This document shows positions 1,740 through 24,556 of a DNA stretch of 31,376 nt, piece after piece. The stretch is from a virus, in the UHGV virus genome UHGV-0241516. One strand, 5' to 3'. Made by a program: the position numbers and the translations under genes. The stretch's first letter is position 1. The number at the start of each line of letters is the position of its first letter. The notes under the pieces are model-generated. The model saw only the letters and a program-made list of their open reading frames with translations, had not been told where the DNA came from and did not search any database.

Positions 1740-2324
1740 TTACTCCGGATATTTAAAAATTACGTAGGTATGCGACGGGCAGAGTTTGTTAAGCACACAT
1801 TCGACAACGGTGTCGCCCCAGATACGCAGTGCGGAATCACAGGGATCGCCACATGTCATCCAGGTGGTGTTGGTGGCGGCTGGCATGTTGATCTGCCAGT
1901 AATACCGCCATTCCGGCGCATTCACCGCGTCAGTACAGGCCGATGAGCAGGTGAACGTGCTTTTGTCGTATCGCGTGATGGTAGCATCTGGTCTGCCCAG
2001 GGCAGCAAGCTGTGCAAGATAAAAATCCTCGTTGATGCCACCCGACAGGTTAACCTTCGCATCCAGCCGTTGCTGGCGCTGGCGAAGGGTCTGTGTCCCT
2101 GTAGGAATACATTCATCCGGCAGGCCGCACAGACGCTCCCAGCGGTTTATCAGTTCGGTGGTGGTGCGCGGATCCAGCTCCCGCATCAGGGCATCCGCAC
2201 GCTGATGAACACGGGTTAATGACGGTGCCGTACCGGCAATCGCCGGATCGCTGGCTGACCACGCCGGACCGGGCGGCAGCAGTGCCGACAACAGACGGAT
2301 GTAATCATCGTTTGTCACGTCCAT
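1740..2324 (-). CDS. Mu gp48-like baseplate/tail protein (DUF2313-like)
   Basis: 194 aa. Position between the baseplate J-like gene and the fibre gene matches Mu-like tail order. Family assignment from memory. Confidence 0.65.
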
Positions 2325-3373
2325 GAAATCGTCCCCAGAACCGCCAGTTCATTTTTTGCAATGGAGATATTGTCCGCCGGTGCAAGCAATTGATGGCTGT
2401 ATTCCCCGTTCGCACCGGAAATCGCCTCACTGATACGCGATACCTTCAGTTCTCCCTGCGGATAACCATCACGCAGCAGGAACGAACGCAACTCCGCGGT
2501 AATGGCAGCCCGTATTTCTGGTGTGTCCGGCGTCACGCGGATATGAAAATCCACCGTATGCGCCGCCGGCCTGAACACATACAAATCAGAGCCTGCCACC
2601 GGGGCCAGTGGCCCGATATGTTGTCTTGCCGCCGTTTCCGTTGATTCTTCCGGAATGGGATTAATCAGGTCACTGCCGGCAATCATCACACCGACAGTCC
2701 CCGTTCCCATCCAGTGACGGTATGTCCATGCGCGGGTAATGCCGGGCACTTCTTTAGCCCAGACGACATAGTCCCCGTCAGCCCCGCCCTGCGGCGTCCA
2801 GTAATACCGCTCAATGACGCGGGCGCGCCACGTTTCCAGATCTTCAGTATCGAATCCGCCAGTCAGGGTATCTGCCACACCGGAAGACGGCAGACCATTC
2901 ACCGGCGTGACCAGGATTAATGCCGTACCGTCGTCAGCGTTACCGACCGCGCCTGCAGTTGAGCAGGCGATCGGCACGCGCAGGACTCCACCTGAGCTGG
3001 TTGCATCAGAAGTTGCCGTGTACTGAACCAGGTCATCGCGCTGAATAACACTCCCGGCGGTCACCTTCAGGCCATCGCTGACACCTTCCCAGCGCATATA
3101 CCCGCTGGCAGACGTGGCCCCCTTGCGCGGACACCGTTTCATCGCAGCATGTCGCGCCAGCCAGGACTCATCGCACAGGTCAGGCAGCATGTTCATTGCC
3201 AGATAATCGATGTAACCGTAAACCGTATGCAGCGCCGCCGCATACACCTTTGCCCGCACGTCTTCATCCATGCGCCGGAGCGTGTCGCTGACGTCCAGCC
3301 TGGCGAATAAATCGTTACGGAGCATACTGATATTTTCTGCCAGCGTCGGGCGCTGAAATTCACTGTCCGCCAT
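2315..3373 (-). CDS. Baseplate J-like protein (Mu gp47-like)
   Basis: 352 aa. ATG at 3373-3371 checked. Position and size fit baseplate J family in the Mu-like tail cluster. Confidence 0.75.
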
Positions 3374-5412: not shown

Positions 5413-6779
5413 TGCACTGGCACCTTCAGAGGGATCACCGGCACAAAGCCGGGATGCGTAATGGCATTACGCCGGATAATGTCCGCGTCACGCGCCGCGT
5501 TATCAAACCAGGTCGCCGCCAGCACCAGCGCGGGTAAAACCTCATCCGGCGTGCGCTGAATGATCCGTGCAGACTGTTCAAGGCGCGTGTTGATATCCGC
5601 ATTCAGATCTGCTTTCACCCGGCGCAGCGCCAGAAACAGCGCATCACTGGTTGTACGGGACAACTCCTTATCAATTGCCGTATTCAGTGTGTCGCGAATG
5701 TCAGTCAGTTCTTCCCACGTCGGCAGGTCAACTGTGTTTTTCACCGCCGGTGCATTGTTCAGTGCCGGATGCGTGACGGAAGGCCAGCCAGTGCTCTGCG
5801 CAGGTGTTGTTGCCTGCCCCACTGCGGCATTCTGCATCACCGCGGAAGTTGTTGGCGTAGGCAATCGGGTGACGGCATACGCCGCTTCGCTGATTGCGGT
5901 CGTACGAAGGGTGCTGGCAACCACGTTACGCTGCTGCGTAGCCGTGGCGGTGGTTTTACTGTCCGTTTTCCAGACGCCGCGCGGTTGCAGATCGCTGCCG
6001 AGGCTGACACCGGAAAGCGTTTTGATCATGGTGACCAGGTCGCTGGCGTTACCATAAAGGCGTTTCCCGGTACGCCACATTTTCTGCACCTGCTCAACGA
6101 AATTTTTGCCTGACGATGGCGGCGGCAGAAGTACCGAGATATCCCCCTGCAACAGCCTGGCGGCATCCGATACGGCAGAATCCACCACTTTCATCGCATC
6201 AGAAACATACCCAAGCATTGTGCTGGCATTACCGACGACGTCGTTCTGCACAAAATCTGCCACGCCATCGATACTGAAACTACTGAAACTGTCACTGATG
6301 CAGTCATCCAGTGCAGAACAGGATGACATCAGCGTCTGCGCCGTCGCCGCACCTGATGTGGGGTAAGAGAGTTCTCCCGCTTCGACAAACTTCAGGTCAA
6401 AGCGGACAATACGCCCTTCACTCTTCGATGTGCTGACCCGAACCTCTCCGTCAACACAGACTTTCAGCTCACCGTAAGTCGGATGGACAAGCGTGCCGGG
6501 ACCGGGTTTATTCAGCGCGTCAATCAGGCGATCGCGCTGGTCAAAGCAGTCATCTCCCACCACATAAGCCGTGATGGACGGGCGGAAAGTGATTTTCCCC
6601 AGGTCTTCGGTATAGGGTTTGTCGCGGTTCGGGTATTCGTGCGTTTCCACACGACGACCGGTTCCCGCACTTTCTTCTTCAACCTTAAACGGCACACCGC
6701 GAAATGACGCGTCCTGAAGTCTGTCTTTCCACGTCATATAAACTCCGTACATAAAAAATCCCACCGGAGTGGGACTCAT
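5409..6779 (-). CDS. Mu N-like DNA circulation protein
   Basis: 456 aa. N-terminal MTWKDRLQDASFRGVPFKVEEE…HEYPNRDKPYTEDLG matches the DNA-circulation N-terminal domain as recalled. Directly downstream of the tape measure. Confidence 0.75.
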   Translation of the reverse strand: MSPTPVGFFMYGVYMTWKDRLQDASFRGVPFKVEEESAGTGRRVETHEYPNRDKPYTEDLGKITFRPSITAYVVGDDCFDQRDRLIDALNKPGPGTLVHPTYGELKVCVDGEVRVSTSKSEGRIVRFDLKFVEAGELSYPTSGAATAQTLMSSCSALDDCISDSFSSFSIDGVADFVQNDVVGNASTMLGYVSDAMKVVDSAVSDAARLLQGDISVLLPPPSSGKNFVEQVQKMWRTGKRLYGNASDLVTMIKTLSGVSLGSDLQPRGVWKTDSKTTATATQQRNVVASTLRTTAISEAAYAVTRLPTPTTSAVMQNAAVGQATTPAQSTGWPSVTHPALNNAPAVKNTVDLPTWEELTDIRDTLNTAIDKELSRTTSDALFLALRRVKADLNADINTRLEQSARIIQRTPDEVLPALVLAATWFDNAARDADIIRRNAITHPGFVPVIPLKVPVQ

Positions 6780-6797
6780 TAACAGATTAATTTTTCA

Positions 6798-8633
6798 TTA
6801 CCTGCCAAAGCGCGTATAGCCAACATCATGGCTGACATCAAAACCGCTGGATCGCGTTTCCATAACCCGCATACCCGGAGGCGAATTCACAAAAGAGACC
6901 TTGATCTCACCATCAACTTTTGGCGCAGAAGCTTTGTTAATCATGAAGGGATTCAGGCCTGTGGCACCGGAGGCGTTGTTTGACTGAGCCGGATCTACCG
7001 CCGGATAAGGTGTGTATCCCCGCGCCGGTATTCCCGTCCCATAAGCATCATAAGCACCCGCGCCCCACTGCGCAGAGTTAATGGCATCGACCGTGTCACC
7101 GGAACTGTCGGTAAACCACTCAATAATTGGCTTCAGCTTGTCCCACATATCCTGAAACCACTTAACAACCGGTCCCCAGTTATTGATCACCATCCCCAGC
7201 GGCGACCAGGCAAAAACCTTCTTAAGAAGTTCCCAGCCAGTCTCAAAATAAGGACCAATGGTTTCCCAGAGTTTCTTAAAATAAGGTCCGACAACATCCC
7301 AGTTAGTGATAATTAATCCCGCAGCGAGGGCTATCGCCGTCGCAATCATGCCAATCGGCGTCATCGACATGATCCTGCTGACAATACTGATGGCACCGCC
7401 AACGCCCATCAATCCCAGTTTCAGAATCGCAAGACCGGCAGCAAGCCCGACGACGCCGCGAATAACCCGGGGATTTTCATCCGCAAACTTCGTGAATTTT
7501 TCCCCTAACTCCCCCAGCCATTGCGTGATATTTTTAGCGTCACCAGAAAATGCGCCGCCAATAGCCGCAAGGCCGTTAGTTGCGGTCCCCGTCATTGCCT
7601 CCCACAGGTTGGACAGCGTACCAAGCTGAGCCTGAACACGTTTATTCAGGCTGGCCTGTTTATTCATCTTCTGCTGGATCTGATCGTAGCCATCCTTTCC
7701 TTTATCGATCAGCGCATTGACCACCTGAAGGGTTTCGGCATCATCACCAAATATTGCCTTAAGTACACCGGTTCGCTTAACGTCGGTCAGTTTTCGCAGC
7801 TTTGCCAGTTGCCTGAACATGTTATCAAGACCGCCAAAACTCCCTTTGCCATCAGTAAAATCGAGCTGTACCCCGAGTTTCTGGCGGGCCATGATTTTAT
7901 TGACGTCCCTGATTTTCTTAACGCTTAATCCGGACTGGATAACTTTTCGCAGGGCATTACCTGCCGACTCCCCGTTCATCCCCATCTGATCCATCATGAC
8001 ACTGATGGGGGCAAGACTCTGTGCAGCCTGAAGACCGTCCTTATTCACCATTTTCAGAACAGAACTGGTTTTAGTGAAGAAGGACAACATGTTGGTATCA
8101 TCAACGCCCAGATAAAACGCCTTCTGGATAGTGTCGAACAGCCCCATCATGTCTTCTGACGCCGTTCCGGTAGCATCCTGCATCTTTGCAGCAAACTCAG
8201 CAGCCGCTTCCGGTGTTTTTTTCAGTTGTACCGCAAGATAAGCTGTCGCTTTACCCACACCACCAAGAATGTTTTCTGCCGGGATCCCCTGACGCACCAG
8301 CATCTGCATCATGTTCTGGAAATCAGCCGTTGTACCGGGTAGCTGGTTACCCAGGCCAATAGCCAGTTTATTGATGTCCTGAAAGCTCTTTCCAACCTCG
8401 CCGTTCGCATCCATCATGGCGACTTTCAGCCCGGTGGCGGCGTTTTCCTGATCGGCATAAGATTTCAGGGAAAGCGTCAGACCCGCTGCCAGTCCGCCAC
8501 CAAGCGCCAGCCCACCCTGTGACGCTTCTTCCGCCTGGCGTTTAAATCCCCGGATTTTCTTTTGCATTTTCGACAGCGCGGGAGAAAGCCTGTCGACACC
8601 GGTGATCAACGCCTTAAGCTCAAATTCAGCCAT
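6798..8633 (-). CDS. Tail tape measure protein
   Basis: 611 aa, Ala/Gly-rich with long hydrophobic segments (GVVGLAAGLAILKLGLMGVGGAISIV…). Follows the frameshifted chaperone pair. ATG at 8633-8631. Confidence 0.85.
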   Translation of the reverse strand: MAEFELKALITGVDRLSPALSKMQKKIRGFKRQAEEASQGGLALGGGLAAGLTLSLKSYADQENAATGLKVAMMDANGEVGKSFQDINKLAIGLGNQLPGTTADFQNMMQMLVRQGIPAENILGGVGKATAYLAVQLKKTPEAAAEFAAKMQDATGTASEDMMGLFDTIQKAFYLGVDDTNMLSFFTKTSSVLKMVNKDGLQAAQSLAPISVMMDQMGMNGESAGNALRKVIQSGLSVKKIRDVNKIMARQKLGVQLDFTDGKGSFGGLDNMFRQLAKLRKLTDVKRTGVLKAIFGDDAETLQVVNALIDKGKDGYDQIQQKMNKQASLNKRVQAQLGTLSNLWEAMTGTATNGLAAIGGAFSGDAKNITQWLGELGEKFTKFADENPRVIRGVVGLAAGLAILKLGLMGVGGAISIVSRIMSMTPIGMIATAIALAAGLIITNWDVVGPYFKKLWETIGPYFETGWELLKKVFAWSPLGMVINNWGPVVKWFQDMWDKLKPIIEWFTDSSGDTVDAINSAQWGAGAYDAYGTGIPARGYTPYPAVDPAQSNNASGATGLNPFMINKASAPKVDGEIKVSFVNSPPGMRVMETRSSGFDVSHDVGYTRFGR

Positions 8634-9044
8634 GTGTGCGTTTCTCCTGCTCTATCCTGTTTGCCTGACTGACCAGCAAGGGAATTTCACTGATCGGCAT
8701 ATTCAGCAATTCGAAGGGATTAATGCGCCAGTAACTGGCGCAGTCAAAGAAGCGATCAGTGAGGTATTCAGCCGTCAGGCCTGGAGGAAAAAACCGGCCA
8801 CAAGCCACGCCGCTGCATTCAGGTCTGCCGGAGACATCTGGTCGACAGAGCTTTGCGGCACTTTCGCCAGCCGCACGATGTATTTCGATACCACATGCGC
8901 CAGAAGTCTGACGGACTCATCCTGATTCATCTGGTAGGGATATCCCAGCTCGCGGACATCTTTCCCGGTGGGCTCATCAAACTCCAGTACGGAGAGTGTC
9001 TCGCCATGAGCGGTAATCGGTTTCTTTAACTCAAGCTCTTTCAT
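8626..9044 (-). CDS. Tail assembly chaperone, predicted -1 frameshift fusion product (~139 aa)
   Basis: The -1 frame stays open from the slippery site to a TGA at 8628-8626, overlapping the tape-measure start. Same layout as the conserved G/GT-type chaperone frameshift between tube and tape-measure genes. Confidence 0.65.
8775..9044 (-). CDS. Tail assembly chaperone, short (zero-frame) product
   Basis: 89 aa. ATG at 9044-9042 overlaps the tube stop (TAATG). Ends TGA at 8777-8775. Contains slippery T_TTT_TTC (plus 8787-8793) near its 3' end. Confidence 0.8.
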   Translation of the reverse strand: MKELELKKPITAHGETLSVLEFDEPTGKDVRELGYPYQMNQDESVRLLAHVVSKYIVRLAKVPQSSVDQMSPADLNAAAWLVAGFFLQA

Positions 9045-9400
9045 TACTGGTAATCCCCTTCTTCACCGTGGAACTCAAGATCGACCGTGCCTTCTTCGGC
9101 ATTATGGTTCGCTTCGCCGTGCAGCCAGGCAGACGACAGTACATAGACCTGACCGTTTGCCAGCTCGGCAGTGATGGTCATCTCATCAGACGAGGTGATT
9201 TTGCTCACCGGAAAATTCTTCGGCACCTTGAAGGTCCCTTTGACATAAGGCGCACGGTGAGTTTCCTTGCGGTCCACTGAACCGTCCAGGCCGATGATGT
9301 CATCATTGACCGTCCTGTTCATGGGCACCTCAATGCCGCCGGTCAGCGATAGCTGCTGACCGTCAATTTTGAAATAACAGGTTCCCCCGATACGGGCCAT
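9044..9400 (-). CDS. Tail tube protein (Mu gpM-like)
   Basis: 118 aa, immediately downstream of the sheath gene. ATG at 9400-9398, TAA at 9046-9044. Confidence 0.8.
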   Translation of the reverse strand: MARIGGTCYFKIDGQQLSLTGGIEVPMNRTVNDDIIGLDGSVDRKETHRAPYVKGTFKVPKNFPVSKITSSDEMTITAELANGQVYVLSSAWLHGEANHNAEEGTVDLEFHGEEGDYQ

Positions 9401-18587: not shown

Positions 18588-18637
18588 ATGCGGCACTCCT
18601 GGTTAAATTTCATTTTTCGCGGGTATAAAAAAACGAT

Positions 18638-18686
18638 GGGGCGGGCAGTCCGGAAGACGTCAGGTCACAGGGATTTGACCCGCCCC
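18638..18686. other. Candidate cos/terminase-recognition region: GC-rich 8-bp inverted repeat
   Basis: Read directly: GGGGCGGG (18638-18645) and CCCGCCCC (18679-18686), 33 bp apart, in the HNH-TerS intergenic gap. HK97-like cos phages place cos between the HNH and small-terminase genes. Confidence 0.35.
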
Positions 18687-18712
18687 TCCCCTCTGGCAGT
18701 GGGAACTGGTTC

Positions 18713-19063
18713 TTACTTAATCCGTTCACGGGCCGTCTTCGCCTTATGACACGGCCAGCACAGACTCTGTAGGTTACTGTCTGCATCGGTGCCGCCATGC
18801 GCTTTAGGGATGATGTGGTCAACGGTTTTCGCCTCGCGCACCACACCGGCACGCAGGCACAACTGGCACAGGCCTTTGTCACGCTTCAGCACACGCGCGC
18901 GGATAACGTCCCACTTCGAACCATAACCGCGCTGATGACGGGACTGGCCAGACTTGTATTGCTTCCAGCCTTCGCTTTTGTGGCTTTCGCAGTAGCCTGA
19001 TGGGTCAGTCGTGGTATGGCGGCAGCCGCGAACGCGGCAGGCTTTTGGGGTTCGTGGAGGCAT
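18713..19063 (-). CDS. HNH endonuclease (terminase-associated)
   Basis: 116 aa. Cys pairs (CRVRGC…C) plus HIIPKAHGGTDADSNLQSLCWPCHKAKT are the HNH signature. Directly upstream of TerS as in HK97. Confidence 0.85.
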   Translation of the reverse strand: MPPRTPKACRVRGCRHTTTDPSGYCESHKSEGWKQYKSGQSRHQRGYGSKWDVIRARVLKRDKGLCQLCLRAGVVREAKTVDHIIPKAHGGTDADSNLQSLCWPCHKAKTARERIK

Positions 19064-19190
19064 CTATTATCCCTGTAGTTTTCGTTAAATATCTAACCAT
19101 AACTGCAATCAGAAACCGCTTTAACACGGTTTGCTAAATAGACTTTTCAATCCAATGAATAAACGGCAAGTAAATACCAATCGTTCATTT

Positions 19191-19625
19191 TCATTTGAAT
19201 ACAAACTGTTCTGAAAGAATATTATGACAAATATATTTCGCCTGAATACTATTATCTCTCATTCTAATATATTCTTTGTGGGCAACAGATAAAGAACGAC
19301 AACCGCTGTTTACACGTGGGTATTTTTCCAACATATGTTCGCATATCAAAAAAGCATTATTAATAGCATTTAATTTATGGCTTAACTCTCGTAGCTCGGC
19401 CCTTTTTTCAATACGAACATTACGACTAAGAGATAAAGGTAGCTGTGATAATGCATTTGAATAATCAGCCACTGCCATTTTCAGAGCCATTTTGGCCTTC
19501 AGAGCCTCCTGTCGCCGCCAAACATTCATTGCCCAAAAACCTAATGTAACAGTTACAATTGAACCTAAAGCCGATACAGCTGACCACACAGTTCCCCAAG
19601 GCCAGTTAAGTAATGTATGCCACAT
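19191..19625 (-). CDS. Moron: membrane-anchored protein of unknown function in an AT-rich island
   Basis: ORF track start is GTG 19637; second ATG at 19625 has GGAGG 5 nt upstream. N-terminal hydrophobic helix, then a ~100-aa soluble domain. Local GC is visibly lower than the flanking phage genes. Confidence 0.6.
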   Translation of the reverse strand: MWHTLLNWPWGTVWSAVSALGSIVTVTLGFWAMNVWRRQEALKAKMALKMAVADYSNALSQLPLSLSRNVRIEKRAELRELSHKLNAINNAFLICEHMLEKYPRVNSGCRSLSVAHKEYIRMRDNSIQAKYICHNILSEQFVFK

Positions 19626-19993
19626 CATAACCTCCACTGAATGAAAAGGTTAGTTTATCGTAAGTGAACATCACTGGCACTATCTAAAGATTAGCTGCTC
19701 TACTAGTTGTACTCTCGATAATCTAAACAAAATGATACGTAATAAACCTGTTCATGACTAGCTCTACTAGACACATGTTTAATCATCTACAAACGATTTG
19801 TACAAACTTCCACTTTCATATTGGTCCAAAATGTTGGACTAATAGTTAATCACGATGCATATTTTATGTAAGCTGCTACATTACACTATAAAAACGCTGG
19901 CGTCTGAATTTAAGCCCATAAGTTTTATAAAATTATCATAATACACAGCTTTATTAGGCGCATTCGCACTGATAATGAAAAATATAACTCGAG

Positions 19994-20266
19994 CTATTTG
20001 TCTTTCGAATGCAAAATAGCGCGCCGTGATTCAATCTTTCTGATTCCAGTTTTATCAAAATTACATTGTCCCAAGGCTGACAATAGAGCAACATTCAACT
20101 CCAGACTGGTACCATACGTCAGCGGATTGGGTATAAACGGTACAGGAGTATCAGAAGTCAGGCTGGCTGGCAGTGGTGCCACCGGAGCGCTCACGTAAAC
20201 CGTTCGCGAATTTCCGCAACCGGTCAGCAGCGGCAGCAGGCACAGGACGTGAAGCACAATCATCAT
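19994..20266 (-). CDS. Rz1-like o-spanin lipoprotein (+1 frame, overlapping Rz 3' end)
   Basis: ATG ATG at 20266-20261. Signal peptide with lipobox LLTGC, Pro-rich mature part. Overlaps the last ~115 nt of Rz and extends past its stop. Confidence 0.65.
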   Translation of the reverse strand: MMIVLHVLCLLPLLTGCGNSRTVYVSAPVAPLPASLTSDTPVPFIPNPLTYGTSLELNVALLSALGQCNFDKTGIRKIESRRAILHSKDK

Positions 20267-20543
20267 CCGCAACAGCCACTTTGATATCTTCCTGGGTTCT
20301 CTGTGACTCCAGTGCGATCTGCTGTTTTGCATGCTGGTTAACCTCTATAACTGTATTGACGATTTGCAGTGATTGCAGGACGTTACGGGTAATGGCTGTT
20401 GCAGATTCAACATTTTGTACAGCCTCATCAGCACGTTTCTTTTCGTGCTGATATTTGCTGTAGTAGTGGTTGGCAGACCAGATGAAAGAACCGATGACAG
20501 TAAAGAAGAATGCAGCGATAACCAGCTTATAGCTCAACTTCAT
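20151..20543 (-). CDS. Rz-like i-spanin
   Basis: 130 aa with N-terminal TM helix and coiled-coil periplasmic domain. Immediately follows the endolysin. Confidence 0.8.
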   Translation of the reverse strand: MKLSYKLVIAAFFFTVIGSFIWSANHYYSKYQHEKKRADEAVQNVESATAITRNVLQSLQIVNTVIEVNQHAKQQIALESQRTQEDIKVAVADDDCASRPVPAAAADRLRKFANGLRERSGGTTASQPDF

Positions 20544-21003
20544 TTACCACCCCACCAGCCTCTTTAAACCGGGAAATCAGGTCACCGATTTTATGTTCAT
20601 ACTGACCGTAACCTGCACCAGGTAACGACGCCCAGATATTGCTGCAACGATCGATAGCCTGACGGATATCACCGCGATCAATCATCGGTAAAGCGCCACG
20701 CTCTTTAATCTGCTGCAATGCCACTGCGTCCTGGCTTTTGGGGGAGAAGTCTTTCAAACCAAGCTGTTTACGGTAAGCATCCCACCAGCGTGAAAGAAGC
20801 TGATAACGTCCGGCGGCTGTTGATTTGAGTTTGGGGTTTAACGTGACAAGTTTGCGAGGGTGATCAGAGTAATCAGTAAACAGTTCGCCGCCAACAATAA
20901 CATCATAACCGTGGTTACGTGTCGGTTGTCGCCCGTTATCCGTTCCTTCTGACCATGCAACCATATCCAGGAAAGCTTTACGCTGGGAATTTAGTACCTG
21001 CAT
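20527..21003 (-). CDS. R: Endolysin, lambda R-like lytic transglycosylase
   Basis: 158 aa, near-identical over most of its length to lambda R as recalled (…QRKAFLDM.AWSEGTDNGRQ.TRNHGYDVIVGGELFTDYSDHPRKLVTLNPKLKST…). Confidence 0.95.
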   Translation of the reverse strand: MQVLNSQRKAFLDMVAWSEGTDNGRQPTRNHGYDVIVGGELFTDYSDHPRKLVTLNPKLKSTAAGRYQLLSRWWDAYRKQLGLKDFSPKSQDAVALQQIKERGALPMIDRGDIRQAIDRCSNIWASLPGAGYGQYEHKIGDLISRFKEAGGVVNEVEL

Positions 21004-21418: not shown

Positions 21419-22471
21419 TTATTTCCCCACCAGTTCACTTACCTCTTTCACCGTCTGATTAAACCGCTCTGACTCAAGTTCAACACCTAACGCCCGACGC
21501 CCCAGCGCCATTGCCGCTTTTATTGTGGAACCGGATCCCATAAAGAAATCAGCAACCAGATCGCCTTGTCGACTACTGGCACTGATTATTTGCCGGAGCA
21601 TATCCGCAGGCTTCTCACACGGATGTTTACCCGGGTAGAACTGAACGGGTTTATGCGTCCAGACGTCGGTATAAGGCACGGAAACTGATACGGAGAAATA
21701 GCGCCGGAGAGTTTTAAACTCATCCAGCAATTCATAATATTTGCGATTCAGTGAATCATAAGATGCCACCAGCTGGTGGTGTGGTTGTTCCAGTTGTTGT
21801 TCCTGAAACTTCTCTGCCGCTATACGGGAAAACAGTGCCTGCAACTTCCGGTAGTCAGCCTCATTCGGCAACTGCCACTGACTGGCACCAAACCAGTGGG
21901 AAACCATATTTTTCTTACCAGTGGCTTCGGCAATCTGTTTTGCCGTTATACCCAGTTCGGCACGAGCATCCCTGAAATACGATATCAGCGGTGCCATTAT
22001 GTGCTGTTTGAGTTCCCTTTCTTTTGCCGCATAGCCGTCACTTTTGCCGCGATATGGCCCCTGGTAATGTTCAGCAAACAGAACGCGCTCTGTGGCAGGA
22101 AAATATGCGCGCAGACTTTCTTTATTACACCCATTCCAACGTCCGGACGGCTTCGCCCAGATGATATGGTTAAGCACGTTGAAACGTTCACGCATCATGA
22201 TCTCAATATCAGATGCCAGGCGATGCCCACAGAACAGGTAAAGGCTTCCGGCAGGTTTCAACACCCGCCAGAACTGGGCCAGACAGTGGTCCAGCCACTT
22301 AAGGTAATCTTCGTCCCCTTTCCACTGATTGTCCCAGCCGTTGGGTTTCACCTTGAAGTAAGGCGGATCGGTAACAATCAGGTCAATGGAATCATCAGGC
22401 AGGGACTGAATAAAATGCAGGCAATCAGCGTTGATTAAATCAACACTGTTTATTTTTACAGTATTTTTCAT
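21419..22471 (-). CDS. DNA methyltransferase, beta-class (N6A or N4C), orphan
   Basis: 350 aa. DPPY (motif IV) near the N-terminus and FFMGSGST (motif I) near the C-terminus. No restriction partner seen. Confidence 0.8.
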   Translation of the reverse strand: MKNTVKINSVDLINADCLHFIQSLPDDSIDLIVTDPPYFKVKPNGWDNQWKGDEDYLKWLDHCLAQFWRVLKPAGSLYLFCGHRLASDIEIMMRERFNVLNHIIWAKPSGRWNGCNKESLRAYFPATERVLFAEHYQGPYRGKSDGYAAKERELKQHIMAPLISYFRDARAELGITAKQIAEATGKKNMVSHWFGASQWQLPNEADYRKLQALFSRIAAEKFQEQQLEQPHHQLVASYDSLNRKYYELLDEFKTLRRYFSVSVSVPYTDVWTHKPVQFYPGKHPCEKPADMLRQIISASSRQGDLVADFFMGSGSTIKAAMALGRRALGVELESERFNQTVKEVSELVGK

Positions 22472-22621: not shown

Positions 22622-22849
22622 TTACTGGCAGCGTCTGAATTTATTCCCGTACCCGCCGTTATCCTTCGCCAGACCCGCCAGAACTAACTGAGTCAGTATT
22701 AACTGGCACCGGGCTTCGCTTACTCCGGTAGTTCTCGTCATCATGCGTGGCGTTACCCACTTGTCAGCAGGTAAGAAATGAAGGACTGCGGCGGCGGTTT
22801 CTGTCATATCTTGCTGTTTTAGCATGTCTTTTTCCCTTCTGGTTAACAT
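22622..22849 (-). CDS. Small hypothetical protein (75 aa), possible winged-helix
   Basis: ATG at 22849-22847 with weak RBS. Function unknown; could be spurious. Confidence 0.4.
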   Translation of the reverse strand: MLTRREKDMLKQQDMTETAAAVLHFLPADKWVTPRMMTRTTGVSEARCQLILTQLVLAGLAKDNGGYGNKFRRCQ

Positions 22850-22946
22850 GACATACCAATAACTCTTGTCTAAAAAGCCAGCAAGATAAAAAGTCAGTAT
22901 TCACGACCACCAGCGTGTTTACTGTGCTGCACCAAGTTTACAGGTA

Positions 22947-22972
22947 CAAAAAAACCGCTCAGCGGCGGGTTT
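22947..22972 (-). terminator. Terminator-like hairpin with T7 tract on the minus strand
   Basis: Minus strand reads AAACCCGCCGCTGAGCGG followed by TTTTTTT (plus A-run 22948-22954). Stem is short. Could be tR'-like. Confidence 0.35.
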
Positions 22973-23144
22973 AAGTTGTGTGGCGAAGTAACCACTCTTA
23001 ACACAGTAATCTAGAAAATGCGGACCGCGTTAGTGATTTTTATCTGTTTTTCCATTATTTTTTTGCCACACAGCTTAAAACGAAAAATAAAGCAGGCGTT
23101 GCCAAACCTCACGGTGACAGTTGGCTTAGAATGAGGACATATTT

Positions 23145-24164
23145 TTGGATAAGTTTGATGAGATTCATGTAGACATTGAATCTGAGCAGCAAGCCTTCGA
23201 TTTGCTTGAAAGCTATCTTGATGGTTATGGTTTACCTGACAGTTTAAGTTTCAACGGATGGCCAAACCTTACCATCAGATTAACCGGTGAAAAATTCAAC
23301 AGATCGCTAACACCTTCAGTTATGAAGGGATTTGTTGAAATGCAAGCTCAAATCAACAAATCATATGCCCTTGCCAAGTACGGTGTCCCTGACGTCCGCA
23401 AACTGACCAAAGAAGAACTTGATGCCCTAGAAATAGAAGTTACGGTAGAACAGGGTTCTTCAATAGTAGAAATCAACATTGATGGCTTTTTAACCAAACT
23501 CACACAGGAACTTGTTGGTAAAATGAACGCAACTGAGATCATGTTTACTGTTCTCGGCGCAGCAGTCATCTGGGGCGGAGTAACAGTATTTAAACGGTTC
23601 TTGGACAACCGTAAAGATATTCGCCTTGCAGAAATTGCTAAGGATGGAGAGAAAGAACATCTCCGGACTATGCAGATCATGAGCGAGCAAGAAACTAAAC
23701 GCCTGCGGGTTATTTCAGAAATGATTGCGGAAAAACCACTTCTCGATAACATGGACCGTATGTCGTATGACGCTAAAACCCAAATGGTCAAATCCTTTGT
23801 GCGTTCAGATAACGCTCAAATTGATGGCGTTACTATTGATTCTGAAATGGCGAAAGAGTTGGTTACGAATGCTCGTAGACGTTCATCAGAAATGAGGATT
23901 GATGGTATTTACCGAATTGAAGAAGTCAATAATACTGACCCAGAGAGTTTCAAAGTTAAGGTCCGACGCGTAGATACCGACCAACGTCTAACCTGCGTAG
24001 TTCAGGATGTTTTCCTTGATGAATCCGGAAACAAAGAAGCATTGCAGCGAGCTGAGTGGGAAAGAAAGCCTGTACATTTGAGCATTAACGCAAAACACGT
24101 CGATGGTGACATTAAGTCAGCAGTAATTCTCTATGTTCGAGATGTGGAACAAAAGCCCGAGTAA
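23145..24164 (+). CDS. Moron: 339-aa protein of unknown function with a central predicted TM helix, opposite strand to the prophage
   Basis: TTG start at 23145 with GAGGA 7 nt upstream; no in-frame ATG upstream after the stop at 23127-23129. Hydrophobic IMFTVLGAAVIWGGVTVF mid-protein. Lower GC than flanks. Ends 14 bp from the convergent Q stop. Confidence 0.7.
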   Translation: MDKFDEIHVDIESEQQAFDLLESYLDGYGLPDSLSFNGWPNLTIRLTGEKFNRSLTPSVMKGFVEMQAQINKSYALAKYGVPDVRKLTKEELDALEIEVTVEQGSSIVEINIDGFLTKLTQELVGKMNATEIMFTVLGAAVIWGGVTVFKRFLDNRKDIRLAEIAKDGEKEHLRTMQIMSEQETKRLRVISEMIAEKPLLDNMDRMSYDAKTQMVKSFVRSDNAQIDGVTIDSEMAKELVTNARRRSSEMRIDGIYRIEEVNNTDPESFKVKVRRVDTDQRLTCVVQDVFLDESGNKEALQRAEWERKPVHLSINAKHVDGDIKSAVILYVRDVEQKPE

Positions 24165-24178
24165 TCGGGCTTCAATAA

Positions 24179-24556
24179 TCAATCTTTAATTTCGGGGTCC
24201 ATCTCTAGACTAATTTCCAGCATCGATAGGCAGCCATCAATAAACCCCTCAGCCATCTGTATCTCAATGCGTATTAGTTTCTCATCCTTTTTACGAGCCT
24301 TGGCGAGCTTTCTTTTAGAGATACCGTATAGGTAATGGGCAACAAGAAGCGAATGTTCGTCCGGCCTTTTTTGCCTTAGACGAGCAAGACAACCTTCAAT
24401 AATTAATGCATCACTATCTGAACATGCCTGACGTGTTTTGCTTGTATAGGGAAGAAGCCCTTTAAACCCAGCAGCTATAGGAGAATAGTCTACTCCTGAA
24501 CTATCACTCGCCGCCCATGCTCCCCAACGATCCAGAACCATTTGAATATCACGCAT
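24179..24556 (-). CDS. Late-gene antiterminator Q (QuuD-like)
   Basis: Preferred ATG at 24556 with GGAGA 6 nt upstream. MRDIQMVLDRWGAWAA…IAAGFKGL… matches the QuuD-like Q N-terminus as recalled. Upstream of the lysis cassette. Confidence 0.7.
   Translation of the reverse strand: MRDIQMVLDRWGAWAASDSSGVDYSPIAAGFKGLLPYTSKTRQACSDSDALIIEGCLARLRQKRPDEHSLLVAHYLYGISKRKLAKARKKDEKLIRIEIQMAEGFIDGCLSMLEISLEMDPEIKD

What the first reader, a model, noticed from the sequence alone, without database searches (positions are those of the whole stretch)
19064..19993. AT-rich island between the lysis cassette and HNH/terminase carrying a membrane-anchored orphan protein
The 19064-19993 stretch is markedly AT-richer than the rest of the window and holds one gene (19191-19625, N-terminal TM helix, no recognisable domain) plus ~370 bp of noncoding DNA upstream of it. 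In lambda this position holds bor-type morons. Composition and placement suggest horizontally acquired cargo with its own promoter.
Basis: partly seen in the sequence, partly recalled or inferred. Interest (0 to 1): 0.68.

Follow-up and report, generated by a model that had tools for sequence, protein, structure and literature searches.

The report
AT-rich prophage cargo: small membrane protein
This is a real, horizontally swapped accessory-gene cassette in a known variable slot of an E. coli prophage, between the lysis genes and the DNA-packaging genes; it encodes a small inner-membrane protein of an uncharacterised phage family, probably used in phage-versus-phage competition, and is interesting but not extraordinary.

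Summary
Window 19064-19993 has 35% GC against 53% for the window (z = -3.5) and is the lowest-GC stretch in the 31 kb. It carries one minus-strand gene (19625-19191, 144 aa) plus a 368-nt non-coding leader.

The gene is real (dN/dS 0.13-0.24). It encodes an N-out/C-in single-pass membrane anchor joined to a four-helix bundle (PHROG 6169, function unknown; no Pfam, NCBIfam, PADLOC or PDB match).

It is dispensable cargo. About 1110 of 5426 complete E. coli genomes carry the same HNH-terminase module, but only 27-28 carry this island. Homology with relatives breaks exactly at the HNH start codon. In relatives the slot is empty (26 bp) or holds iss (the bor homologue), DUF6236, DUF2441, GrlR, KilA-N, ClpP and others, all AT-rich. 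Two deeply divergent members of the same family sit in this same slot in near-identical phages.

The "own promoter" claim is not supported. Only weak consensus matches occur and no terminator was found. The gene is co-oriented with the late operon in about 46 loci.

Function is inferred, not shown. My best guess is inner-membrane exclusion or defence, in the manner of HK97 gp15 (about 0.35-0.4). The main rival is a late-expressed modulator or counter-defence protein. This is a new member of a known kind, of moderate-to-low interest.

The parts
19191..19625 (-). Cargo gene. It encodes a 144-aa protein with a short periplasmic N-terminus, one transmembrane helix (about residues 11-34), a near-invariant juxtamembrane motif W-R/K-x-Q-E-x-L-K-A-K, and a cytoplasmic four-helix bundle.
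   Evidence: PHROG 6169, E = 4e-57. Homologues at 60-70% identity in Hafnia, Enterobacter, Salmonella and E. coli. dN/dS 0.13-0.24. AF2 model with pLDDT 83.8. K/R bias to the C-terminal flank in 43/43 members. Start codon fixed.
19626..19993 (-). AT-rich non-coding leader (GC 0.33) between the LysC stop and the cargo gene. About 240 nt of it travel with the gene when the lysis cassette is swapped. It contains only weak sigma-70-like matches, for example -35 at 19760 and -10 ending at 19732.
   Evidence: The AH65 and L3Cip3 variants have the same leader next to a different (GH19) lysis cassette.
19064..19190 (-). AT-rich 127-nt spacer (GC 0.33) between the cargo stop codon and the HNH start codon. 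It is part of the island, nearly invariant among island variants, and has no intrinsic terminator.
18713..19063 (-). HNH endonuclease gene, first gene of the HK97-type packaging module. Its start codon is the sharp left boundary of the variable slot.
   Evidence: Pfam HNH, E = 2.3e-16. Homology with six relatives ends at 19063 in five and at 19076 in one, and at 19063 in L021.
19994..20332 (-). Rz1-like o-spanin gene (LysC), embedded in Rz (20151-20543). Its 3' end is the fuzzy right recombination boundary of the slot: homology with relatives resumes between 20027 and 20157.
   Evidence: Pfam LysC, E = 8.9e-15. Boundaries.

Best explanation
Shown, confidence about 0.9. Window 19064-19993 is an accessory-gene cassette of the moron kind. 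It occupies the hypervariable slot between the spanin genes and the HNH/terminase packaging module of a lambdoid E. coli prophage that has HK97-type packaging genes and a contractile tail. It carries one real gene under purifying selection. The product belongs to a small family restricted to temperate enterobacterial phages (PHROG 6169). It has an N-out/C-in single-pass inner-membrane anchor continuous with a cytoplasmic four-helix bundle. The gene is dispensable for lysis and packaging.

Inferred on expression. The gene is co-oriented with the Q-dependent late transcript and not insulated from it, so it should be made at least late after induction. Whether the AT-rich leader also drives expression in the lysogen is open.

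Inferred on function, confidence about 0.35-0.4. The protein acts at the cytoplasmic face of the inner membrane in conflict between phages. The most likely role is single-gene superinfection exclusion or defence: blocking genome entry or aborting infection by other phages, as HK97 gp15 does. On this reading the conserved TM and juxtamembrane helix dock on a conserved membrane partner, and the fast-diverging bundle provides specificity.
For: Cargo status:
- The GC anomaly is real.
- The island is in 27-28 of 5426 complete E. coli genomes, while the adjoining HNH-TerS module is in 1110.
- The slot is empty (26 bp) in NA3664. Elsewhere it holds iss, GrlR-family, DUF6236, DUF2441, DUF6979 plus KilA-N, a hypothetical plus ClpP, and other hypothetical genes.
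- Slot GC was 0.33-0.45 in all 12 relatives examined (11 with cargo, one empty).
- Homology breaks exactly at the HNH ATG.
- The same island at 91-97% identity sits next to an unrelated GH19 / two-holin lysis cassette.

Real gene: dN/dS 0.13-0.24, and 67 representative clusters at E <= 1e-3 among 1.84 billion proteins.

Conflict-type signature:
- Two deeply divergent family members occupy the same slot. L021 has flanks 97% and 86% identical to the window but a protein about 18% identical. The L029 allele of 184 aa is in 27 further E. coli genomes.
- The juxtamembrane helix shows 40% mean pairwise identity against 21% for the bundle.
- The slot upstream of the packaging module is a published location of prophage immunity genes (Tai/Ati of phi80; PMC11364771).
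- HK97 gp15 is a small inner-membrane exclusion protein encoded by a co-oriented moron in the late operon (PMC3594210). Its sequence shows a comparable N-terminal TM plus charged helical tail.
Against: - No experiment or homology links the family to exclusion or defence. There was no PADLOC hit for 43 members beyond isolated marginal ones. There was no homologue in HK97 or in the right-end regions of lambda and phi80 that were fetched.
- Exclusion needs expression in the lysogen. No convincing promoter and no terminator were found, and the gap to the spanin gene can be 78 nt.
- The gene is co-oriented with late genes in every locus seen, and directly follows the lysis cassette in most. That fits a late function at least as well.
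- The fold is a generic helical bundle and carries no functional information.
Confidence: 0.4

Rival explanations
1. The protein is a late-expressed accessory that serves the phage's own lytic cycle. It would be made only from the Q-antiterminated late transcript and act at the inner membrane. Possible roles are to tune the end of infection (lysis timing or membrane integrity) or to neutralise a membrane-associated host or prophage defence, as a counter-defence in the sense of phi80 Ati.
For: - The gene is co-oriented with the late operon in about 46 loci, covering roughly 10 independent genomic contexts.
- It is usually the first gene after the spanins.
- There is no flanking terminator and no conserved promoter.
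- The intergenic gap is as short as 78-82 nt.
- In phi80, a co-oriented gene of this same slot is a late-expressed antidote (PMC11364771).
Against: - Island alleles 97-100% identical sit next to unrelated holin and endolysin sets: lambda-S-type holin with GH24, or Holin_8 plus Holin_3_7 with GH19. A specific antiholin-type partnership is therefore unlikely.
- About 97% of prophages with the same lysis and packaging genes do without it.
- No cognate defence gene lies in the island, as an Ati-like antidote would need.
- Distant members sit in tail or head modules, away from lysis genes.
Confidence: 0.27
2. The protein is a single-protein abortive-infection or toxic membrane effector. The cytoplasmic bundle would sense an invading phage component, and the Ala/Ser/Thr/Gly-rich TM helices would then oligomerise and depolarise the membrane.
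For: - The TM helix is rich in small residues and conserved.
- The single-gene cassette sits in an immunity hotspot.
- One family member gives a marginal match to a PADLOC '1TM effector' model, E = 0.007.
Against: - The PADLOC match is isolated and not significant for 43 searches.
- A gene that kills on activation, sitting uninsulated in the phage's own late operon, would need self-immunity, and no partner gene is present.
- There is nothing in the fold search to support it.
Confidence: 0.1
3. The gene is a lysogenic-conversion factor of the Bor/Iss type, acting on the cell surface in serum resistance or adhesion, as the first reader suggested testing.
For: The position matches bor in lambda and iss in sister prophages. 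The DNA is AT-rich and horizontally acquired.
Against: - No signal peptide or lipobox: there is no Cys in the first 90 residues (sequence).
- The positive-inside rule places the domain in the cytoplasm in 43/43 members.
- No Pfam Bor match.
- The orientation is opposite to bor and iss.
Confidence: 0.04
4. The gene is an essential or core component of lysis or packaging that merely looks odd in composition.
For: It sits between the two modules and on the same strand.
Against: - The slot is empty in NA3664, with intact flanking genes.
- Other relatives carry a dozen different unrelated cargos there.
- The island is present in only about 2.5% of genomes that carry the packaging module.
Confidence: 0.01

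Closest known systems
Morons of lambdoid phages (Juhala et al. 2000; Cumby et al. 2012, PMC3594210), including lambda bor and its E. coli prophage homologue iss
   Same: It is extra DNA that close relatives lack, with a composition different from its neighbours, inserted at a module junction. It occupies exactly the slot that holds bor in lambda and iss in sister prophages.
   Different: No recognisable promoter or terminator of its own was found. It is co-oriented with late genes, whereas bor and iss are on the opposite strand. The product is an inner-membrane protein with a cytoplasmic domain, not an outer-membrane lipoprotein. There is no sequence relationship.
HK97 gp15 (YebO-like) superinfection-exclusion moron
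   Same: Both are small proteins with an N-terminal single TM helix followed by a basic, helical cytoplasmic tail. Both are encoded by a co-oriented insertion in the late operon of a lambdoid phage with HK97-type packaging.
   Different: gp15 is 62 aa, has no helical bundle, lies in the tail module and has an annotated terminator. The family HMM does not detect it. Exclusion has not been shown for the present protein.
Tai/Ati immunity and counter-immunity pair of phi80 and the hotspot upstream of the packaging module (PMC11364771)
   Same: The genomic slot is the same, between Rz/Rz1 and the terminase/cos region, and is documented as a place where lambdoid prophages keep anti-phage genes. Co-oriented genes there are expressed late from the Q transcript.
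   Different: There is no homology to any ORF of the phi80 right end. This is a single gene, not a divergent pair. Tai is a soluble 26-kDa protein, and nothing points to a tail-assembly target here.
PHROG 6169 (function unknown)
   Same: A direct profile match over the full length, E = 4e-57.
   Different: The family is only a cluster with no annotated function and no paper.

Membership tests
Moron (independent accessory transcription unit in a phage genome) | Extra DNA that is absent from otherwise collinear relatives | tested here: met
   The slot is empty (26 bp) in NA3664. Eleven other relatives carry different cargo. The island is in 27-28 genomes against 1110 with the flanking module.
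Moron (independent accessory transcription unit in a phage genome) | Base composition different from the surrounding genes | tested here: met
   GC 0.353 against 0.58 and 0.47 in the flanks; z = -3.5.
Moron (independent accessory transcription unit in a phage genome) | Own promoter upstream of the gene | tested here: inconclusive
   Only 9/12 consensus matches, no more than shuffles give. None lies upstream on the gene's strand in L002 or L005. Needs 5' RACE or RNA-seq.
Moron (independent accessory transcription unit in a phage genome) | Own factor-independent terminator downstream of the gene | tested here: not met
   There is no terminator-like site on the minus strand between 19190 and 19064. 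The only hairpin lacks a U-run.
Moron (independent accessory transcription unit in a phage genome) | Expression from the repressed prophage | not testable with these tools
   No expression data are available.
Bor/Iss outer-membrane lipoproteins | Signal peptide with lipobox cysteine, and sequence match to the Bor family | tested here: not met
   No Pfam hit. No Cys in the N-terminal 90 residues. The C-terminal domain is predicted cytoplasmic.
HK97 gp15 / YebO family | Sequence homology to gp15 | tested here: not met
   The family HMM searched against all six-frame ORFs of HK97 gave no hit better than E = 1.
HK97 gp15 / YebO family | Blocks genome entry of superinfecting phages when expressed from the prophage | not testable with these tools
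   Needs plating and DNA-entry assays.
Tai / Ati (phi80) | Sequence homology to phi80 orf63 or orf64 | tested here: not met
   The family HMM gave no hit in phi80 40000-46150. tblastn against 50,697 phage records found only Enterobacter phage CobraSix.
Known anti-phage defence systems (PADLOC-DB 2.0) | Profile match to a catalogued defence protein | tested here: not met
   0 families for the window protein. Across 43 family members there were only isolated marginal hits, E >= 0.002.
Holin / antiholin / spanin (lysis cassette component) | Profile match, or obligatory co-occurrence with one lysis system | tested here: not met
   No Pfam match. Near-identical alleles sit beside unrelated holin and endolysin sets, and most sister phages lack the gene.
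PHROG 6169 | Full-length profile match | tested here: met
   E = 4e-57, residues 4-145 against profile positions 2-164 of 165.

The most novel reading that the evidence does not exclude
PHROG 6169 would be a previously unrecognised family of single-gene, inner-membrane-anchored exclusion or defence proteins (or counter-defence proteins) of temperate enterobacterial phages. It would be kept as rapidly diversifying alleles in the slot between the spanin genes and the packaging module. A conserved TM and juxtamembrane module would dock on a host membrane component, and a variable cytoplasmic four-helix bundle would recognise different invading phages.
Probability: 0.3. Interest if true: 0.55.

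Novelty: new member of a known kind. Interest (0 to 1): 0.32.

Why it matters
If the protein excludes or aborts other phages, it would add a new small membrane-protein family to the prophage immunity repertoire. It would also mark the junction between the spanin genes and the HNH/terminase module of HK97-type prophages as a place to mine for such genes. That module is present in about a fifth of complete E. coli genomes, and here the slot held at least a dozen different AT-rich cargos, almost all uncharacterised. If it is only a late-expressed helper, it is a modest addition to phage accessory biology. Either way the finding does not overturn anything. Variable cargo at this junction (bor, iss, Tai/Ati) is already known.

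Tried and rejected
- Domain and family searches found nothing. This covers Pfam, NCBIfam and PADLOC on the protein and Pfam, PADLOC and a PDB profile search on 43 family members.
- DNA search of the island against 50,697 phage records gave no match.
- Rfam found nothing on 18600-20600.
- The promoter and terminator scans on the window and three related loci gave no convincing signal.
- PADLOC on 13 alternative cargo proteins from the same slot gave no hits, apart from a weak PDC-S22 match for the KilA-N protein. The slot could therefore not be shown to be a hotspot of catalogued defence systems.
- An alignment-based scan of species-representative genomes found a single locus, in Enterobacter quasihormaechei.
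- A literature search for the protein accessions and the PHROG id returned nothing.
- I considered an insertion signature from the 15-nt inverted repeat flanking the island. I set it aside because one arm lies in lysC coding sequence and the differences in the AH65 variant are not compensatory.
- I considered a specific antiholin role and rejected it because identical alleles accompany unrelated holins.

Full report
1. The observation

All genes in this part of the window run on the minus strand. In order they are:
- a DNA methyltransferase (22471-21419)
- a lambda-S-type holin
- a GH24 endolysin (21003-20527)
- Rz (20543-20151) with the embedded Rz1-like LysC (ending at 19994)
- the stretch in question
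- an HNH endonuclease (19063-18713)
- a P27-family small terminase (18596-18093)
- the large terminase (18096-16363).

Composition. GC is 0.353 for 19064-19993, against 0.526 for the whole window. For 930-nt windows this is z = -3.5, and only 0.14% of such windows are as low. The minimum of the whole 31 kb starts at 19076. The gene's GC3 is 0.29, against 0.63-0.66 for the HNH and terminase genes.

- The start is the ATG at 19625. Three natural variants of the island read ATT at 19628-19626, where this window has an extra ATG.
- A GGAGG lies 5 nt upstream of 19625, and every homologue begins at the equivalent Met.

The 368 nt upstream (19626-19993) contain no ORF above 31 aa, differ by indels between variants, and have no Rfam match.

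2. What it is

2a. A real gene of an uncharacterised phage family
- The protein matches PHROG 6169 (function unknown) at E = 4e-57. It matches nothing in Pfam, NCBIfam or PADLOC.
- Homologues of 60-70% identity occur in Hafnia, Enterobacter, Salmonella and E. coli.
- An exhaustive profile search of 1.84 billion representatives found only 67 clusters at E <= 1e-3. Forty-three members gave no Pfam, PADLOC or PDB match.
- dN/dS against the 65-70% homologues is 0.13-0.24, so the ORF is translated and under purifying selection.
- The AlphaFold2 model (pLDDT 83.8) shows one helix from residue 11 to 61 that starts as the hydrophobic segment and runs into a four-helix bundle.
- Flanking charges are 0.26 K/R on the N side against 5.0 on the C side, biased in 43 of 43 members. 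By the positive-inside rule this means N-out/C-in, so the bundle is cytoplasmic. This topology is inferred.
- No cysteine lies in or before the TM helix, so the protein is not a lipoprotein.
- Across the family the juxtamembrane helix, with the motif W-R/K-x-Q-E-x-L-K-A-K, is the best-conserved part: 40% mean pairwise identity against 21% for the bundle.

2b. Dispensable cargo in a hypervariable slot
- The island is found at 91-100% identity in 27-28 of 5426 complete E. coli genomes, always chromosomal.
- The adjacent HNH-TerS module is found in 1110 genomes.
- In the six sister prophages aligned first, homology to the window stops at the HNH start codon (19063 in five, 19076 in one). It resumes inside the 3' end of lysC, between 20051 and 20157, or at 20591 in the iss prophage, whose spanin genes differ. 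The metagenomic relative L021 resumes at 20027.
- Between those points one relative has 26 bp.
- Others have iss on the opposite strand, or two small hypothetical genes on either strand.
- Others carry a hypothetical gene plus ClpP, a GrlR-family gene, DUF6236, or DUF6979 plus KilA-N.
- Others carry DUF2441, other hypothetical genes, or 418 bp with no annotated gene.
- Slot GC was 0.33-0.45 in all 12 relatives examined, against about 0.57 and 0.48 in the flanks.
- HK97 itself carries a KilA-N gene between Rz and its HNH gene. Lambda carries bor after Rz.
- phi80 carries rha, Tai and Ati in the same slot (PMC11364771). That paper states that Tai homologues lie predominantly upstream of the packaging module.

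2c. The family keeps to this neighbourhood while everything around it changes

The flanking modules vary widely in the 13 loci retrieved by protein identity, the Enterobacter quasihormaechei genome locus and the 25 IMG/VR loci.
- The gene lies downstream of at least five different lysis cassettes: lambda-S holin with GH24; Holin_2_1 with lysozyme; Holin_8 plus Holin_3_7 with GH19 or GH108; Holin_3_3.
- It lies upstream of at least three packaging types: HNH/P27/HK97-TerL; Nu1/GpA; ParB-Mom-Terminase_2/6.
- It is always on the same strand as these genes.
- Island alleles 97-100% identical to the window occur beside both the lambda-S/GH24 cassette and the unrelated two-holin/GH19 cassette.

More distant members lie elsewhere in late regions.
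- One lies between baseplate genes of a Serratia myovirus-type prophage.
- One lies behind other cargo in a Pantoea prophage.
- One lies between TerL and the next gene downstream (a 449-aa unnamed protein) in the temperate Enterobacter phage CobraSix.

Two deeply divergent members occupy this very slot.
- The first is in a metagenomic phage, L021, whose flanks are 97% and 86% identical to the window but whose protein is about 18% identical. The profile built without it scored it at E = 9e-5.
- The second is a 184-aa allele present in 27 other E. coli genomes. hhalign gave probability 97%, and the local HMM search gave E = 1.5e-37.

3. How it most likely works

Shown:
- It is an accessory cassette.
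- It encodes a membrane-anchored helical protein.
- It is not needed for lysis or packaging.
- It is not tied to one holin, endolysin, spanin or terminase.

Inferred on expression. No terminator-like element lies on the gene's strand between lysC and the gene, or between the gene and HNH. The gene should therefore be read by the Q-antiterminated late transcript.

The evidence for a promoter of its own is weak.
- There are 5 consensus matches in 2 kb against 4.1 expected. The best on the right strand is TAGTCA-17-TATCAT at 19760-19732, scoring 9/12.
- No promoter-like site lies upstream on the gene's strand in the Hafnia and Enterobacter relatives.
- In some relatives the gap to the spanin gene is only about 80 nt.
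- On the other hand, about 240 nt of the AT-rich leader travel with the gene when the lysis cassette is exchanged.

Inferred on function. I commit to a role in conflict between phages at the cytoplasmic face of the inner membrane. The most likely form is single-gene exclusion or defence, in the manner of HK97 gp15. That protein is a small inner-membrane product of a co-oriented late-operon moron and blocks genome entry (PMC3594210). Its sequence shows the same layout of TM helix plus basic helical tail.

The reasons are:
- the single-gene cassette
- the position in a slot already known to hold immunity genes
- the presence of several very divergent alleles in the same slot
- the pattern of a conserved membrane-proximal module with a fast-changing distal domain.

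I put this at about 0.35-0.4. The main rival, at about 0.27, is a late-expressed helper: a lysis or membrane modulator, or a counter-defence protein. It is favoured by the strict co-orientation, the lack of insulation and the habitual position right after the spanins. It is weakened because identical alleles accompany unrelated holins, and because no partner gene is present. An abortive-infection effector (about 0.1), a Bor/Iss-like surface factor (about 0.04) and an essential function (about 0.01) are less likely, for the reasons given under the rivals.

4. Comparison with known systems

The element meets two defining features of a moron: extra DNA and deviant composition. It fails one (no terminator), and two remain open (own promoter, expression in the lysogen). 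It is not a member of the Bor/Iss, gp15/YebO, Tai/Ati, holin/spanin or any PADLOC family. It is a member of PHROG 6169, for which no paper or annotation was found.

5. Novelty and verdict

Variable AT-rich cargo at the junction between lysis and packaging genes is well known. What is new here is:
- the description of this small family
- its predicted N-out/C-in architecture of anchor plus bundle
- its fidelity to late-operon junctions
- the co-existence of very divergent alleles in one slot.

That makes it a new member of a known kind. Interest is moderate to low (0.32). If it proved to be a new exclusion or defence family, interest would rise to about 0.55.

Noticed in passing
window 22700-24400 (ORF 23145-24164, + strand): A second low-GC region (0.40-0.43) lies between the Q antiterminator gene (24571-24179, minus strand) and the methyltransferase. 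It holds a 339-aa ORF on the opposite strand to the late genes, with no Pfam or PADLOC match above threshold. The relative EC1515 has two different hypothetical genes here. It is probably another cargo slot, at the position where Stx phages carry stx (that comparison is from memory).
   Followed up: partly
window 21419-22471 (minus strand): A 350-aa N6/N4 DNA methyltransferase (Pfam E = 8.5e-42; PADLOC MTase_II E = 2.6e-152) sits directly upstream of the holin gene, with no restriction partner nearby. It is absent from the otherwise 96-98% identical EC1515 prophage and is a pseudogene in strain 1506.
   Followed up: partly
window 19101-19115 and 20037-20051: A 15-nt inverted repeat (14/15 complementary) brackets the island, 921 nt apart. 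My rough estimate of chance for this region is 0.04-0.1. One arm lies in lysC coding sequence, and the changes in the AH65 variant are not compensatory, so it is probably chance.
   Followed up: partly
L023 (E. coli AH65), gene at 2128-2583, minus strand: This 91%-identical allele carries an in-frame 21-nt tandem duplication that repeats seven residues (SAVSALG) inside the transmembrane segment, lengthening it. RefSeq annotates it as intact.
   Followed up: no
L056-L059 and L061 (IMG/VR loci), about 5440-9400: In these relatives (63-64% identical protein) roughly 4 kb of further unidentified DNA lies between the family gene and the HNH/terminase genes. The slot can therefore hold multi-gene cargo, with this gene still first after the lysis cassette.
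   Followed up: no
L002 6759-6781 and L005 6671-6693: A conserved terminator-like hairpin (GCGGGAAACGGCTAGTTTTT[C/T]GC followed by ATTTTAT) lies 230-320 nt downstream of the family gene, just upstream of the Nu1-type small terminase gene. This is where I would expect the cos region of these phages. Its role was not examined.
   Followed up: no
L022 (E. coli 1506), 1373-2791: An IS5-family element (ISKpn26) has truncated the prophage inside the island's leader. It removed the cargo gene and everything downstream, leaving the lysis cassette next to ecp fimbrial genes.
   Followed up: no
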